Source: Eledone cirrhosa
Lineage: Eukaryota
Direction: 5' to 3'
NCBI GenBank assembly: GCA_964016885.1
Contig: CAXHJY010001622.1
Coordinates: 1-41,924, forward strand
Length of the DNA stretch: 41,924 nucleotides
Positions 9,757-40,988 of this stretch are shown in pieces. The translations under genes were made by a program, and so were the position numbers. Positions within the stretch are counted from its first letter, which is position 1. Every line of letters begins with the position of its first letter. The notes below the pieces were generated by a model, which was not told where the DNA came from, made no database searches, and saw only the letters and a list, made by a program, of their open reading frames with translations.

Positions 9757-9955
9757 AACGAAGGAAATGTGGTAGGGAACCAGGTGGACCATAACGCACC
9801 AAAGTACTCAATACTTAGAGTAGTAGAGTGGGTAATAGGAACGAGTAGGATCCCGACGGCTGAGCTCAAGCCGTATCGACGGCTAATTCTGGACTGAGTC
9901 CAGAATTAGCCGTCGAAACGGCTTGAGCTCAGCCGTCGGGGTCCTACTCGTTCCT
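9757..9955 (-). mobile_element. PLE terminal fragment (family X) with inverted short arm, in (TA)n
   Basis: Matches the termini of the PLE at 35865-38802; palindrome centre ~9896. Confidence 0.9.
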
Positions 9956-10439
9956 ATATATATATATATATATGTATTTATATATATATATATATGTGTG
10001 TGTGTGTTTGTTTGTGTGTGTGTATGTGCGTATGTGTGCTTGTGTGTTTGTGTGTGTATGTGTGTATATGTGTGCATATGTATGTGTTTGTGTGCGTGTG
10101 TGTGTACGTGTTTGTGTGTGAATATGTTTGTGTGTGTATGTGAGTGTGTGTGTTTGTGGTTGTATGGTTGCGCGCGTGTGTTTACGTGTGTGTGTCTGTT
10201 GGTGAGTGTGAATGTGCATGTGTATGTGTTTGTGTATATTTCTGTATGTATGTGTGTGTGTATAAATGTATATGTGTGTGGTGCGGTTATGTTTACACCG
10301 GTGTTGTCCCTAACAGTACCAGACAGAAATAATATATTAAAAATCGTTGCCGGTGTCACCCGAACGTAACCGGAAGTTAATAATTAAAATGGCTTCACAA
10401 GCATGAGTTCATAGGTTTGCATCCAATGATTTAGACCAG

Positions 10440-10535
10440 TTCTTCTTTTTGGGTAAGTTGATTTGATGTTCAGAGAATGGGATTGGCTCAGTCCAAAACC
10501 TTTCCTCACTTAAAAGCTTCAAGCTCAGACATCAC
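10440..10535 (+). mobile_element. Decayed RTE 5'-UTR-derived fragment
   Basis: TTCTTCTTTTTGGGT...CAGAGAATGGGATTGGCTCAGT...CTTTCCTCACTTAAAA aligns to ~474-550. Confidence 0.65.
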
Positions 10536-10541
10536 TTGATA

Positions 10542-10715
10542 TATCGGTAAAGGGTCGGACACCATGCTTTCCAGCATAGTTACGTCCCTTTACGATCTGA
10601 GTTCAAATCCCGCCGAGGTTAACTTTGCCTTCCACCCGTATGGCGTCGATAAAATAAAGTACCAGTAATGTACTGGGTAATTGCTGGCCTTGTGCCAAAA
10701 GTAGAAACAATTATT
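10542..10715 (+). mobile_element. tRNA-derived SINE, slightly 5'-truncated
   Basis: B box GTTCAAATCC, core resembling GCCTTTCATCC..GGTCGATAAAATAAAGTACC, tail GGCCTTGTGCCAAAAGTAGAAACAATTATT. Confidence 0.88.
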
Positions 10716-10717
10716 TA

Positions 10718-36566: not shown

Positions 36567-37757
36567 GAGGTCACGGATCTTATAGGATTATTCCTACTAG
36601 TTAAACTCACCGATATGTTTCCTGCATTCGGCGGTGGATTGTACCGTGATGATGGGATCCTTACCCTTAAAGGGTACAACCCTAGTAGTACAGACCGGAT
36701 CCGTAAACAATTAATCAGCTTCTTCCGCGACTGGGGATTTAAAATAACCCTACAAACGTCCCTGACCCGAGTAAACTTCCTGGACGTTACCCTTGACCTC
36801 GATAATGATCTGTACTACCCATACAGGAAACCCAACGACAACCTGCACTACATCCACCGCCAGTCAAACCATCCTAGGAACATCGCCAATAACCTGGTTA
36901 AAAACATCTCCCTCCGCATATCTCGTTTGTCTGCTAATGAGCAGATATTCGAGGAACATGCGCCTTATTACAACCAGGCTCTCAAGCGGAGTGGTTTCCA
37001 GGAGGAAATTTCCTACTGTCCAGCTTCCATTAGTGGAACCAGCAGGCGACACCGCCGCTCACGCAATGTAACATAGTTCAATCCTCCCCACAACGCCGAG
37101 GTGACAACTCCTATCGGGAAAATCTTCTTTAGGCTCATCGAAAAGCACTTCCCACTACAACACCGCTACCACAATATAATTAACAAAAATACCATCAAAC
37201 TCTCCTACAGCACCACACCAAACTTTGCACAAAACATCGTCTCCTCTAACAACAAAAAACTCAACCCCTATGGAAGAAATAACCTAAATAGCAGTGGAGA
37301 GCCGACCAGGAGGTGCAACTGTCCTGATGGATCCATTTTCCCCCTCGACAACAGATGCAGAGATCGTAATGTGATCTACCAGTGCAACGTGAGGACGGAC
37401 ACCTCCAACAAAGCTTATATAGGATTAACCGCATGTGACTTCAAGACCCGGCTATACCAACACAGACATACCTTCCGAAACCCGGCCCGGCGTCACGCCA
37501 CCACACTATCGGGCCACATCTGGCACCTCAAGGATAACAATATTACCTATGATCTCACTTGGAGCTTACTGTCCAGAGCCAACTCCTACACGGGAGGACG
37601 CCGTCCGTGCAATTTATGCTCGGAGGAAACTTTACAAATGCTGTTTTCGACGGACCTACTCCTAAACAAGAAGGACGAACTGGTAAATGCATGCAAACAC
37701 AGATTGCGTAGGACTTACCTCGCCCTCAAACCCAATAATGACCGGGGGGGGGGGTAG
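36567..37757 (+). pseudogene. PLE RT (C-terminal half) + GIY-YIG endonuclease, single in-frame TAG at 37074-37076
   Basis: EVTDLIGLFLL..GLYRDDG..VNFLDVTLDL..PYRKPN..SNHP..RISRLS; RNVT*FNPP (W expected); CNC..PL..C, NVIYQC..AYIGLT..FKTR..H, CNLC..E, LLN, CKH. ORFs 36615 and 37101 are in the same frame. Confidence 0.93.
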
Positions 37758-38850
37758 ACAGGGGCTGTAACACCCCACTTGCCGACTTTGTAATGGGTAA
37801 CCCCTGCTTGCAAAGGTAGACGTAAGATCTTCTTTTATAGCTTTTTATCGCTTCCTCTATATTTCCTTCTTCCCCACATCCCTTCCTAGTCCTTCCACCC
37901 CAGTCCTCTTTCTTTGTCGTCGTCCTTTTCACTTTCTCGCCCACCCGAGGCAGCCCCTCGGTCCTTTGTAGCCTCAGTACCCCCACCCCTTTCCCCTATT
38001 CTGAATTAATTTTCTGTATCAAATTTTTCATATACTTCGTACGAGCATTTATGTAGTTTGCACTAGAATTTTTGTATCGTAGCGGCACCATTAGAGATAG
38101 TATTAGTATTCTTTTTCGGGATTCTGATTTATTATTTCGTATTAGTTTATTTTTTGCACTGGGTGGTTGCTGGCCTTGTGCCTAGGGTAGAAACAATTAT
38201 TTCGTATTGGTTTCGGGACTCTGAATTATTATTTCGTGGTAATTTCTTTAGTATTTTGGCCCCCCACTTGTTGACCCGTCACCGTAAGATATACTCGGTT
38301 GATTTCTACTACCTCTTAAAAGGGTCTCATTATAATTCCGCCCCACCTAGTAAACTTCTCTATAGTCTAGCAGTACCAGTGAGAGACTTGATGCCTGTCG
38401 TTGGGGAATAGTAACCAGTAATTTTTTTATTTTTTTATAAATATTTAATTTTAACATTCTCGGTATTTTTACCCCATATTGTTTTACTTTTTGTTTCGAA
38501 TTCCTCCCCCTCCCCCTCCCTACTATACTTCCTTGACCTCCTGCCTTGCTGTAGTTGGCACTATCAACGCACGACTGGGTTTCCTCCACCCCCTCTCCCT
38601 CTTTCTTCTACTGGCAGGTTCAGCTACCCCTTCCTTCCACAAATTGCCATGATAGAATTATGTGTCTCAACAACAGACTTTTGACCAATCCTTGTGACAA
38701 TCACTTTTCGGCTATTCATATACCAGGATAAAAATGTTCATTTAGTCTAAAATTAGCCGTCGAAACGGCTTGAGCTCAGCCGTCGGGGTCCTAGTCGTTC
38801 CTATATATATATATATATATATATATATATATATATATATATATATATAT

Positions 38851-39395
38851 ATTAGAATTGGTGCTCTGAAACAGCGATATATATATGAATGTATATATAG
38901 TGTATTTTGCAATACACTGTATGCTTAATTAAAAGCATTTTGAAGACCTTAGGCTATTGTTTTAAAGTAGTGACTATGTCACTTACTTCTTTTTTCAGCA
39001 AACAAAGGGAGATAAGCTGACAGATCTCTGTTTCGTACTGTTGGTATTCCGCAGAGCTTAGCTCTCCCTTTGCCTGCTGAAAATTATCAATGTTGGATTC
39101 TTATAGAATTCCAGTAATAATCAGGAACTGATTATACAGAGCGGTTGCCGGTCCAGCAAAAATTGAAAATTAGAATTGGTGCTCTGAAATAGCTATATAT
39201 ATATGAATGTATATATAGTGTATTTTGCAATACACTGTATGCTTAATTAAAAGCATTTTGAAGACCTTACGCTATTGTTTTAAAGTAGTGACTGTGTCAC
39301 TTACTTCTTTTTTCAACAATAGCGTAAGGTCTTCAAAATGCTTTTAATTAAGCATACAGTGTATTGCAGAATACACTTATATATACATTCATATA
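38851..39395 (-). mobile_element. HHR-containing 318-bp unit + partial second unit + inverted arm; relative of 8906-9540
   Basis: Units start at 38851 and 39169; inverted arm ~39315-39395; shares GCTCTGAAA.AGC, CATTTTGAAGACCT and AGAGCGGTTGCCGGTCC with the 8906 family. Confidence 0.85.
39003..39072 (-). ncRNA. Type I hammerhead with extended stem I, core CUGCGGA
   Basis: CAAAGGGAGA GC UAAGCU CUGCGGA AUACCAACAGUAC GAAA CAG AGAU CUG UC / AGCUUA UCUCCCUUUG. Confidence 0.82.
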
Positions 39396-40800
39396 TATAT
39401 ATATATATAGATAAATCTACCAAGAGTTTACGGTAGTGTCCAATCCGTATGAAGAACTCAATGTAATCCGGATATCATGGAAAGAAGAGATGCATTCAAA
39501 AATCACTTTCGGTGAAAGATAAACGGAATACAGAGTTAAGATAAAGTATTAAAAAAATAATGAATAAAACAATGAAACAGTTCCTTATATTAAACAAAAA
39601 AAGTTCATTATTTAACGATCGTTTCTAGGACATATATGTGTTAGAATTGGTATGCATATTCAACAGATCTATGTACAAAATTATACAAAATTATACAAAT
39701 TATCAAATATAATATACATACCAACACATACATATGCCGTCTTCAGAAATAATATATATATATATATATATAATATATATATATATAATATATATAATAT
39801 ATATATATATATATATATATATATATATTATATATATATATTATATATATATATATAATAATAAATAATAATACCAGGTTAACGGAAATGGCATAAGGTT
39901 TACTTGCTAGTGCCGGTTGCATCTCAGCGTACTCAATAGGTTAGGTTATTGATAAATCCCAGAGTAGACACAAAGCATATATATATATATATATATATAT
40001 ATATATATATATATATATATGTATATTTACAAATATATATAAATGCATATATATGTTTGTGTGTATGTATATTTACATACACATATATTACATAAATCTC
40101 TCCTTCCATCTTTACGCCATCTCTCACGCACCTCCTCTCTCTCTCTCTCTCTCTCTCTCTCTCTCTCTCTCTCTCTCTCTCTCTCTCTCTCTCTATGTAT
40201 ATATATGCACAGAAGATTTGGATATTTCACTTTTTATTTCAATTCCATTTCGATTCTATTTATTTTTTTATTCCACATACCACCATTGCGAAACGGATTT
40301 AGGTTTCGAGGTTCAAATTCGTCTACAGAACAGGTTTGGATTTTGAAATTTAAATCTGTCCAGTAATCATGGCAGTTGCCAATATAAGATTGTCTTTATT
40401 GACTTATATCGAGACAGACAAATTGTATTCACTTTAATTAGTTTATTTCATTAATAGCTGACTGTCTGTTGCAATGCAAACACGTTTTGTGTTTATCATA
40501 TATTTTAATGGATATATATATACATATAGGATGGTGAGCGGGTCTTATGTATAGCTACTTAGGATTTCAAAAACCATTGTTTAGAATTTTTCAGCGATCT
40601 GTTATCTAAAGTAAAGGAAAGCCAACATCGTGTCGTAATACACACATTAAGTACACCGGATCTTGTGGGCTTACCATTTACATATTGATATGGAATATCA
40701 TATATAAACATTTATAAGCGTGTGTATATATATATATATATATATATATATATATATATATATATATATATATATATATCTTTATATATATATATATATA

Positions 40801-40988
40801 GGAACAAGTAAGACCCCGACGGCTGAGCTCAAGCCGTTTCGACGGCTAATTCTGGAATTAGCCGTCGAAACGGCTTGAGCTCAGCCGTCGGGGTCTTACT
40901 TGTTCCTATTACCCACTCTACTACCCCTAAGTATTGAGTACTTTGGTGCGTTATGGTCCACTTGGTTCCTTACCACATTTCCTTCGTT
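40801..40988 (+). mobile_element. PLE terminal fragment (family X), fold-back
   Basis: Centre ~40855. Confidence 0.9.

What the first reader, a model, noticed from the sequence alone, without database searches (positions are those of the whole stretch)
9757..40988. Family X insertions break at two preferred points, one being the predicted HHR scissile bond
Seen: seven short copies share the PLE tail. Three fold back at or within ~2 nt of GUC/GGGGUC (11221-11222, 11696, ~25473). Four fold back in a narrow window ~40-50 nt upstream, at the stem II insert (~9896, ~25170, ~32421, ~40855). The long arm always ends ..CGTT(AT)n and the short arm ..CCT(AT)n. Inference: a genomic footprint of self-cleaved RNA used as template, a second stop at stem II, and second-arm priming at an internal CCTAT microhomology with (TA)n.
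Basis: partly seen in the sequence, partly recalled or inferred. Interest (0 to 1): 0.75.

Follow-up and report, generated by a model that had tools for sequence, protein, structure and literature searches.

The report
Ribozyme-cut RNA footprint in Penelope-like insertions
Thousands of short mirror-image copies of a jumping gene in this animal genome stop at two fixed points: most at a likely transcription start, and a few percent exactly at the bond that a predicted self-cutting RNA would cut, which suggests that this ribozyme does cut in living cells and that the cut RNA gets pasted back into DNA.

Summary
The copies are real. They belong to an abundant Hydra-clade Penelope-like element (14,605 exact tail matches). 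Each insertion has two opposed arms in (TA)n, ending at +98 and +20 (hammerhead cut = +1). Both ends are internal to the RNA and share TAT with the target.

Both breakpoints hold genome-wide, but in very unequal shares. The upstream one (-34 to -45) takes 76 of 140 long arms. The +1 class is minor (about 280 versus 7,960 copies) but sharp: 73 of 99 listed short fold-backs stop at or just inside +1, 45 with inserts that are mostly A/T.

The upstream break is probably not a stem II stop. It sits at an initiator-like motif, is enriched for a preceding G (cap-like), and the motif keeps its place in a sister family with a different loop.

The two arms share subfamily alleles (440 of 451 sites) and their 5' end class, so both were likely copied from one RNA. 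Cleavage, cap and start site are inferred, not measured; no RNA data were found. Papers read call PLE hammerhead function unclear. This scan noted two-armed, one-RNA insertions on other DNA of this genome.

The parts
9758..9957 (-). Short two-armed copy: long arm 9758-9895 (+98 to -41), one extra base at 9896 (G on the short arm's sense strand, cap-like), short arm 9897-9957 (-41 to +20)
11204..11318 (+). Short two-armed copy, both arms stop at the predicted hammerhead bond: short arm 11204-11221, long arm 11222-11318, flush join
11598..11716 (-). Short two-armed copy, both arms stop at the predicted bond, one untemplated base at 11696
25039..25233 (-). Short two-armed copy of an older subfamily, arms break near -35; 7-nt duplication in the short arm
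25374..25508 (-). Short two-armed copy of the same older subfamily; long arm to -2, short arm to -1, 12-nt duplication at the junction; ambiguous for the +1 class
32367..32560 (+). Short two-armed copy: short arm 32367-32421 (to -35), long arm 32422-32560 (from -41)
40798..40988 (+). Short two-armed copy: short arm to -39, long arm from -35, 2-nt microhomology at 40855-40856
35865..36565 (-). Inverted arm (+98 end, reaches -603) of a long 5'-truncated copy
35958..36053 (-). Type I hammerhead motif with a long loop II; predicted cut between 35963 and 35962. This copy has the C3/A8 mismatch core and does not fold as a hammerhead in the MFE structure
36000..36009 (-). Overlapping initiator-like motifs inside loop II; inferred transcription starts at A 36003 (-41) and A 36007 (-45)
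   Evidence: Inr consensus recalled
36566..37757 (+). 5'-truncated RT + GIY-YIG ORF of the Hydra type, with one in-frame stop at 37074-37076
38224..38804 (+). 3' pLTR of the long copy, ending at +20 (CCTAT) in (TA)n; lacks about 30 nt including the 5' hammerhead core

Best explanation
These are insertions of a Hydra-clade Penelope-like retroelement in (TA)n repeats, whose two opposed arms were likely made as two target-primed cDNAs from one RNA; most arms end at a likely capped transcription start, and a few percent end at the bond that the predicted hammerhead would cut. Steps: (1) The element protein, probably a dimer, opens both strands of a (TA)n tract (inferred; double-strand cutting and extension were shown in vitro for another PLE, PMC11167929). 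(2) The two DNA ends prime at two internal RNA sites, +98 and +20, each through a 3-nt TAT match (ends and microhomology shown; priming inferred). (3) Both cDNAs run to the RNA's 5' end, often gain untemplated A's (or a C opposite a cap), lose a few bases, and are joined head to head (junctions shown; order inferred). (4) Most RNAs start at -41/-45, inside loop II. They lack the 5' half of the ribozyme, cannot cut in cis, and give the dominant 130-145 nt arms (break shown; start site inferred). (5) RNAs that begin further upstream (read-through of tandem or long copies) hold the whole hammerhead; a share is cut at GUC|G, and the 3' piece gives the +1/+1 copies (break shown; cleavage inferred). 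Separate odds: ribozyme cut 0.8, start site 0.7, one RNA for both arms 0.65.
For: +1 peak: 382 genome-wide matches with both arms near the cut; by hand tally of the 99 loci listed, 73 have no arm upstream of +1 and at least one at +1, and 45 of those carry an insert, which removes microhomology ambiguity. 16 of 17 single-base inserts are A or T, and longer ones run A-then-T in 9 cases against T-then-A in about 4. 29 of the 30 loci fetched from that list printed, all with the full (TA)n-arm-arm-(TA)n anatomy. One-armed copies also start at +1: 4 of 14, the other 10 spread over -8..-27. Hammerhead: core U3-U-G-A-N-A8-A in 77 of 100 listed long arms, a covariant core described for PLE hammerheads (PMC4209133); hammerhead topology is the MFE fold in 3 of 4 natural variants; 92% of cells paired and one pair with a two-sided change between families. 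Start site: 76 of 140 long arms begin at -45..-34, and only 12 lie further 5', scattered from -63 to -1852. Depth in short-read contigs of run X1 rises more than tenfold across this point and falls over 100-fold after +98. G precedes 18 of 30 arms starting at -41 against 27 of 148 at neighbouring positions (Fisher P = 8e-6). TTAGTY keeps its position in a sister family with a different loop. L066 holds three tandem units running -44 to about +213. One RNA: arms agree at 440 of 451 polymorphic sites (57% when shuffled). Mixed +1/upstream copies number at most about 140 (29 of 98 listed loci, of 470), against about 3,000 expected if the arms drew RNAs independently. In L091 the inverted arm matches the upstream pLTR, including a segment that the terminal pLTR lacks.
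Against: No RNA data: no RNA run was listed, so cleavage, cap and start site are unmeasured. The cap signal weakens when only clearly untemplated bases are counted (6 of 10 versus 12 of 44, P = 0.067). An extra G/C also occurs at about 9 of 90 arm ends at +1. The fold is not more stable than shuffles (z = 0.22) and Rfam finds no hammerhead here. Covariation is thin: one informative pair, and that pair was built into the search pattern. 20 of 100 long arms, including the window's, have a C3/A8 mismatch core, yet the subfamily that includes them supplies 5 of 33 +1/+1 copies. Flush GACCCCGGGGTC joins (21 of 99) can also arise by a 2-nt CG microhomology, and 24 of 99 junctions do pass upstream of +1. 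With the short arm at -34 or beyond, long arms at +1 are only 7 of 99, all with microhomology. In Anolis, hammerhead cleavage was not needed in vitro, no reads ended at the cut, and initiation was reported as not homologous to the target (PMC11167929). Genome-wide ratios compare patterns of slightly different strictness, and listings cover only the first contigs.
Confidence: 0.68

Rival explanations
1. Both breakpoints are structure stops of reverse transcriptase on uncut RNA: +1 at the foot of stem III and -41 at stem II.
For: Stem III (6 bp) begins 2 nt upstream of +1, and stem II carries a long insert. No cleavage or cap was measured.
Against: A stop at stem III should include the unpaired C-1, but junctions with an insert stop at +1. 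Stem III is read through in most copies. Independent stalls predict about 3,000 mixed copies, against at most about 140. The -41 pile-up lies beyond the 3' strand of stem II, and the three short sister-family arms seen also begin at -40/-41 despite a different loop. RNA starting at -41 is predicted to fold into another hairpin.
Confidence: 0.1
2. The +1 class arises after insertion, by deletion of the hairpin centre of -41/-41 palindromes through short repeats.
For: Collapse through the self-complementary stem III is common (43 of 99 loci). 3-nt microhomology products beside the cut exist (9 + 6 of 99), and the flush join has a CG overlap.
Against: 45 of 99 junctions carry inserts, mostly A/T, with arms ending at +1 to +4, which microhomology deletion does not give. 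One-armed copies abut (TA)n at exactly +1. Flush joins (21) outnumber the longer-microhomology products (9 and 6).
Confidence: 0.07
3. The inverted arm comes from self-priming (snap-back) of one cDNA or of an antisense RNA, as proposed for Penelope palindromes (PMC3846280), not from a second target-primed cDNA.
For: It explains allele sharing and the coupling of 5' ends without two primers. Palindromic junctions are the rule.
Against: The short arm reaches further than the long arm in 36 of 85 copies, the reverse in 33. In the window's long copy neither arm contains the other (-603 with tail; -2219 without). Both outer ends have the same TAT match to the target, and cap-like G occurs on both arms. 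Later asymmetric deletion could still mimic some of this.
Confidence: 0.12
4. The +1 end is a minor second transcription start or a protein-nuclease cut that coincides with the hammerhead bond.
For: Some +1 junctions have an extra G; a fifth of long arms have a mismatched core.
Against: Single-base coincidence with a complete core and three stems; no initiator-like motif at +1; G-addition is rarer than at -41.
Confidence: 0.05

Closest known systems
Hydra clade of C-terminal EN+ Penelope-like elements (Craig et al. 2021, PMC8557442; passages read)
   Same: Single ORF of about 718 aa from the first ATG, RWK-like motif, DKT, CxCX5C linker, no CCHH, CxxC and CxH motifs, (TA)n targeting, hammerhead in the pLTR, partial tandem plus inverted 5'-truncated arm, tail at one end only.
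   Different: The tail is 78 nt, not 30-40. Most copies are 120-230 bp two-armed inserts with fixed 5' ends. The passages read report no breakpoint mapping and call hammerhead function unclear.
Anolis Poseidon element PAc in vitro (Frangieh et al. 2024, PMC11167929; parts 1-2 of 4 read, supplements not read)
   Same: Both target strands cut and extended; two internal RT starts that bound the tail; predicted dimer; hammerhead upstream of the starts.
   Different: There initiation is called non-homologous, start sites do not differ by strand, and no reads end at the ribozyme cut. Here both starts share TAT with the target, nearly every two-armed copy uses one start of each kind, and a sharp class of copies ends at the cut.
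PLE hammerheads (Cervera and de la Pena 2014, PMC4209133; parts 1-2 of 4 read)
   Same: Type I, 5-bp helix I, bulge at the 5' end of helix II, G10.1-C11.1, palindromic loop III, U3-A8 core variant.
   Different: Full 5-6 bp helix III and a loop II of about 38 nt that appears to hold the transcription start. In vivo evidence was stated to be absent there.
R2 retrotransposon HDV-like ribozyme (Eickbush et al. 2013, PMC3774820; abstract only)
   Same: A ribozyme cut defines the template's 5' end and shows up in genomic 5' junctions.
   Different: R2 needs the cut to leave the rRNA transcript. Here it is a hammerhead, a minor route beside an apparent promoter, and both arms end at it.
L1 twin priming and cap-derived G (PMC4859970, passages; the twin-priming model itself is recalled, only its citation was seen)
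   Same: Two primers on one RNA give an inverted 5' segment; an untemplated G marks copying of the cap.
   Different: The second priming site is fixed, not chance, and the two cDNAs overlap and duplicate the RNA's 5' part instead of dividing it.
Drosophila virilis Penelope promoter (Schostak et al. 2008, PMC2377424) and Adineta Penelopes (PMC3846280); passages read
   Same: Start site with an initiator inside the pLTR; palindromes at inverted junctions.
   Different: The Adineta paper explains the palindromes by self-priming on an antisense template; the data here favour two primed cDNAs on the sense RNA.

Membership tests
EN+ Penelope-like element | Single ORF with RT followed by a GIY-YIG endonuclease | tested here: met
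   786-codon open frame in L091 with YRDD and VIY...YIG motifs read from the sequence; 445 homologues at E<=1e-20. Pfam and PDB scans of the protein gave no hit.
EN+ Penelope-like element | pLTRs from partial tandems, inverted 5'-truncated arm, tail at one end | tested here: met
   L091 anatomy; window 35865-38804
Hydra clade | RWK motif and DKT in place of DKG | tested here: met
   RLRWR and SDKTG; RW(K/R) and DKT in most aligned homologues (criteria)
Hydra clade | CxCX5C linker, CCHH absent, CxxC and CxH around conserved E and N | tested here: met
   CNCPDRSIC; no conserved cysteine pair between VIY and YIG; CNLC and CKH
Hydra clade | Insertion in (TA)n | tested here: met
   133 of 148 long arms are followed by ATA; 4 continue into the element
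Hydra clade | Placement with reference Hydra elements on an RT tree | not tested
   No named reference sequences were in hand
Neptune / Nematis clades | CX2-5CxxC linker and CCHH motif in the endonuclease | tested here: not met
   my early label 'Neptune' was dropped
Type I hammerhead ribozyme | Core with a 3-8 pair, G5, A6, A9, G12, A13, A14, A15.1-U16.1, cleavable N17 | tested here: met
   UUGANAA ... GAAAC ... GUC in 77 of 100 listed long arms; 20 have a C3/A8 mismatch
Type I hammerhead ribozyme | Three helices around the core, supported by covariation | tested here: inconclusive
   MFE topology in 3 of 4 variants; 92% of cells paired, but one informative two-sided change, selected by the pattern; z = 0.22; no Rfam match
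Type I hammerhead ribozyme | Self-cleavage 3' of C17 | not testable with these tools
   Indirect only: insertions end at this bond
Non-LTR retrozyme | Tandem non-coding units, each with a whole hammerhead | tested here: not met
   Short copies hold only the 3' half of the ribozyme or less; the L066 tandem also lacks the 5' core

The most novel reading that the evidence does not exclude
The transcription start of this Penelope-like element sits inside loop II of its own hammerhead, so the ribozyme can form only on read-through RNA and then trims it in vivo to a defined 5' end. An element dimer copies one RNA twice, from two fixed TAT-microhomology sites at the two ends of a (TA)n break. This one route would explain the inverted pLTR, the one-sided tail and the head-to-head palindromes of PLEs in general, and the +1/+1 copies would be a genomic record of PLE hammerhead cleavage in the germ line.
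Probability: 0.4. Interest if true: 0.72.

Novelty: new variant of a known kind. Interest (0 to 1): 0.57.

Why it matters
The papers read leave two questions open: whether hammerheads of endonuclease-bearing PLEs cut in vivo and matter, and how the inverted arms and one-sided tails form. This family is young and abundant enough to read the answer off thousands of junctions at single-base resolution. It suggests that cut RNA is a real but minor template, that most copies are 'strong-stop' copies of the mRNA's 5' end, and that both arms come from one RNA. A 135-nt ribozyme construct, a 140-nt template and an open 718-aa ORF make each step directly testable. It also bears on using PLE proteins for DNA insertion.

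Tried and rejected
A DNA similarity search of the own genome returned nothing because common words are skipped; patterns were used instead. One pattern had a wrong spacer and gave 25 odd copies, not used (corrected). Rfam: no hammerhead among the 150 of 155 window matches shown or in the full-length pLTR. Pfam and PDB sequence scans of the ORF were blank; a Pfam scan of four homologues gave only one weak unrelated hit. No RNA holder was listed among public runs; this is no evidence on expression. Contigs laid gave no joints and cannot show starts; runs X1 and X4 may be the source sample. A covariance model found no more distant relatives in 99 held sources beyond the family's own arms. One row of alignment A4 (L246) was given on the wrong strand and remains in the counts. 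'Neptune' was considered and rejected on motifs. A cluster of long arms at +12..+30 (13 of 140) might be classical twin-priming stops, but most are one-armed and may be hairpin excisions, so it was not used as support. A link between the +1 class and subfamily was looked for by hand and none was clear. Arm identity in long two-armed copies was 92-100% over about 180-350 aligned bases in the nine pairs compared, so the lower identity of the window's long arms does not show two RNAs. Literature searches listed no paper that maps PLE insertion ends to a hammerhead cut; only listings and the passages named were seen, and subscription papers and supplements (for example Fig. S2 of PMC11167929 and file S2 of PMC8557442) were not.
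Full report
Numbering. Positions are on the element's sense strand, with the G after GTC as +1 and the C as -1. Counts called 'hand tally' were made by me from the printed listings, which show only the first 100 matches in contig order.

1. The observation. All seven short copies are in the window. Each is (TA)n, an inverted short arm ending at CCTAT (+20), a junction, a long arm ending at CGTT (+98), then (TA)n. Two copies join at +1/+1 (11221/11222 flush; 11696 one extra base). 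One (about 25473) passes the cut by 1-2 nt and is ambiguous. Four break between -35 and -41. An eighth, long copy (35865-38804) has a +98 arm of about 700 nt and a +20 arm of about 2,240 nt with a truncated ORF.

2. What the family is. The genome is 3.0 Gb; a 43-base tail stretch has 14,605 exact matches. L091 is a full copy: inverted arm, partial tandem, a 786-codon open frame and a terminal pLTR ending at +20. The protein has 445 homologues at E<=1e-20, mostly about 700-720 aa. Its motifs (RWR, DKT, CxCX5C, no CCHH, CxxC, CxH) match those given for the Hydra clade (PMC8557442, passages), not Neptune. No tree was built. After +98 the element continues ATCTAG towards the ORF, so both arm ends are internal to the RNA, and both share TAT with (TA)n. 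89 of 90 short arms end at +20; 133 of 148 long arms are followed by ATA.

3. The hammerhead. The pLTR holds a type I motif: helix I ACCCC/GGGGU, core, helix II with a loop of about 38 nt, GAAA, helix III with a palindromic loop, GUC. The core is UUGANAA (U3-A8) in 77 of 100 listed long arms and has a C3/A8 mismatch in 20 (4,852 matches, hand tally). U3-A8 is a described PLE variant (PMC4209133). The hammerhead is the MFE fold for three of four natural variants, not for the window's mismatch copy, but it is no more stable than shuffles (z 0.22) and Rfam misses it. An older sister family keeps the core, changes one helix II pair on both sides and replaces the loop (100 matches). That pair was built into my pattern, so it is weak support.

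4. Breakpoint histogram. I parsed 148 long arms from the window, from stretches around the first 100 tail hits and from ten small-contig starts. Seven small loci contained in larger ones were dropped; L009 and L091 contribute two arms each and L066 three tandem units. Of the 140 outside the window: 12 lie 5' of -45 (scattered to -1852), 76 at -45..-34, 18 at -33..-4, 1 at -3..-2, 8 at -1..+2, 1 at +3..+11, 13 at +12..+30 and 11 beyond. Both peaks exceed the background (P = 5e-59 and 8e-5). Genome-wide, 7,960 copies have both arms at -34 or beyond, and 382 have both arms near the cut.

5. The +1 class. Hand tally of the 99 loci: 32 are +1/+1 with an insert, 21 flush, 13 have one arm at +1 and the other at +2..+4 with an insert, 7 the same without insert, 15 are 3-nt microhomology products beside the cut, 9 others pass upstream and 2 fall short. 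So 73 of 99 fit an RNA that begins at +1, about 280 copies, or 3.5% of the upstream class. The 45 with inserts do not depend on microhomology; in about three of them one inserted base could be read as templated. Single-base inserts are A or T in 16 of 17 cases, and longer ones run A-then-T more often (9) than T-then-A (about 4), as expected if each cDNA gained A's at run-off. A wider listing gives 33 of 99 at +1/+1 and 43 collapsed through helix III. One-armed copies also begin at +1 (4 of 14). Against: an extra G/C occurs at about 9 of 90 arm ends, and flush joins have a CG overlap.

6. The upstream class. The 3' strand of helix II is at -31..-24, so the pile-up is not at a helix entry. It ends at -44/-45 on two overlapping initiator-like motifs, TCATTT (A at -45) and TYAGTC (A at -41); the consensus TCAKTY is recalled. 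One-armed copies start mostly at -40/-41, and none of those listed reaches beyond -44 apart from one local duplication. G precedes 18 of 30 arms that start at -41 against 27 of 148 nearby (P = 8e-6). Counting only clearly untemplated bases gives 6 of 10 against 12 of 44 (P = 0.067); flush joins give 12 of 20 against 15 of 104 (P = 5e-5). These counts include loci chosen for this class. An untemplated G is the accepted mark of a copied cap in L1 and SVA (PMC4859970, passages). All 16 arms scored at -44 are preceded by another T, which fits A-tailing of the cDNA. The sister family keeps TTAGTT at the same distance, and its three short arms seen start at -40/-41. L066 has three tandem units of -44..+213, so -44 behaves as an RNA end and the RNA runs past +98. 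Summed contig depth in run X1 steps up at this point and down after +98; this run may be the source sample. D. virilis Penelope starts at an initiator in its pLTR (PMC2377424, passages). RNA starting at -41 lacks the 5' core and is predicted to form another hairpin.

7. One RNA or two. The arms agree at 440 of 451 polymorphic sites; shuffled pairs give 57% (maximum 67%). If the arms drew RNAs independently, 280 and 7,960 pure copies imply about 3,000 mixed ones. At most 29 of 98 listed loci of 470 are mixed, about 140, and only 7 of 99 in the directed search of 895. Snap-back of one cDNA would also couple the arms, but the short arm reaches further in 36 of 85 copies, the long arm in 33, with 16 ties, and in the window's long copy neither arm contains the other. 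In L091 the inverted arm copies the upstream pLTR, including a segment missing from the terminal one: two priming sites 3 kb apart on one transcript.

8. Mechanism. Most likely a dimer opens (TA)n, primes at +20 and +98 on one RNA, copies both to the 5' end and the ends are joined. The 5' end is usually the capped start inside loop II, and in a few percent the hammerhead cut of read-through RNA. Shown: arm ends, microhomology, peaks, inserts, allele coupling. Inferred: cleavage, cap, dimer, order of events.

9. Against the literature. Inverted arms, tails and hammerheads are known PLE features (PMC8557442, PMC4209133). Two internal starts and two-strand extension were shown in vitro, but cleavage was dispensable and unseen in RNA reads (PMC11167929, parts 1-2 of 4). 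Hammerhead function is called unclear (PMC8557442). Palindromic junctions were ascribed to antisense self-priming (PMC3846280). R2 is the precedent for a ribozyme cut recorded in junctions (PMC3774820, abstract). The preprint 10.64898/2026.07.22.740005 (part 1 of 5 and passages) links retrozymes to pLTRs, and I saw no junction mapping in it. Seven searches listed no paper mapping PLE ends to the cut; supplements and subscription papers were not seen. Earlier notes of this scan describe two-armed retrozymes elsewhere in this genome; they are unchecked leads, seen after my reading was formed. A sequence look-up found no note on this family.

10. Verdict. Observation confirmed; interpretation partly right. 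A new variant of a known kind, interest 0.57.

Noticed in passing
window 607-4248 (+): Uninterrupted 1,213-codon frame of a LINE with AP endonuclease, RT and C-terminal C2H2 fingers (Pfam RVT_1 E 1.6e-30, Exo_endo_phos E 1.3e-11); RTE-like by recall.
   Followed up: partly
window 41404-41594 (-) and 11439-11570 (+): A second (TA)n-inserted family with a canonical-core small hammerhead (CTGATGA or CTGAAGA ... GAAAC) and a tail sharing GTATTGAGTAC. One copy is two-armed; both break just 5' of the core, not at the cut.
   Followed up: no
window 15293-15340, 15545-15590, 27913-27975: Remnants of the older sister family with only the +20-type arm; the family has 100 pattern matches that include the 5' core.
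   Followed up: partly
L066 4325-5043 (G000 C1 near 27.01 Mb): Three tandem 257-nt units running from -44 into the ORF start, suggesting a circle or repeated template jumps.
   Followed up: partly
L009 1501-1670: A rare copy with the +98 end on both arms, joined through a 4-nt microhomology.
   Followed up: no
window 5379-5732, 30485-30902: Other long inverted repeats (172 and 166 nt arms); the second encloses a (TA)n tract.
   Followed up: no
window 12677-12773 and 26175-26260: Two copies of another short (TA)n-flanked repeat, unrelated in sequence.
   Followed up: no
window 6250-8250, 21000-22410, 22450-23550: Long low-complexity tandem arrays (trinucleotide-based and a 19-21 nt unit).
   Followed up: no
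junction listings: Some junction inserts are re-copies of the arm's own last bases, suggesting repeated release and re-priming at the RNA end.
   Followed up: no
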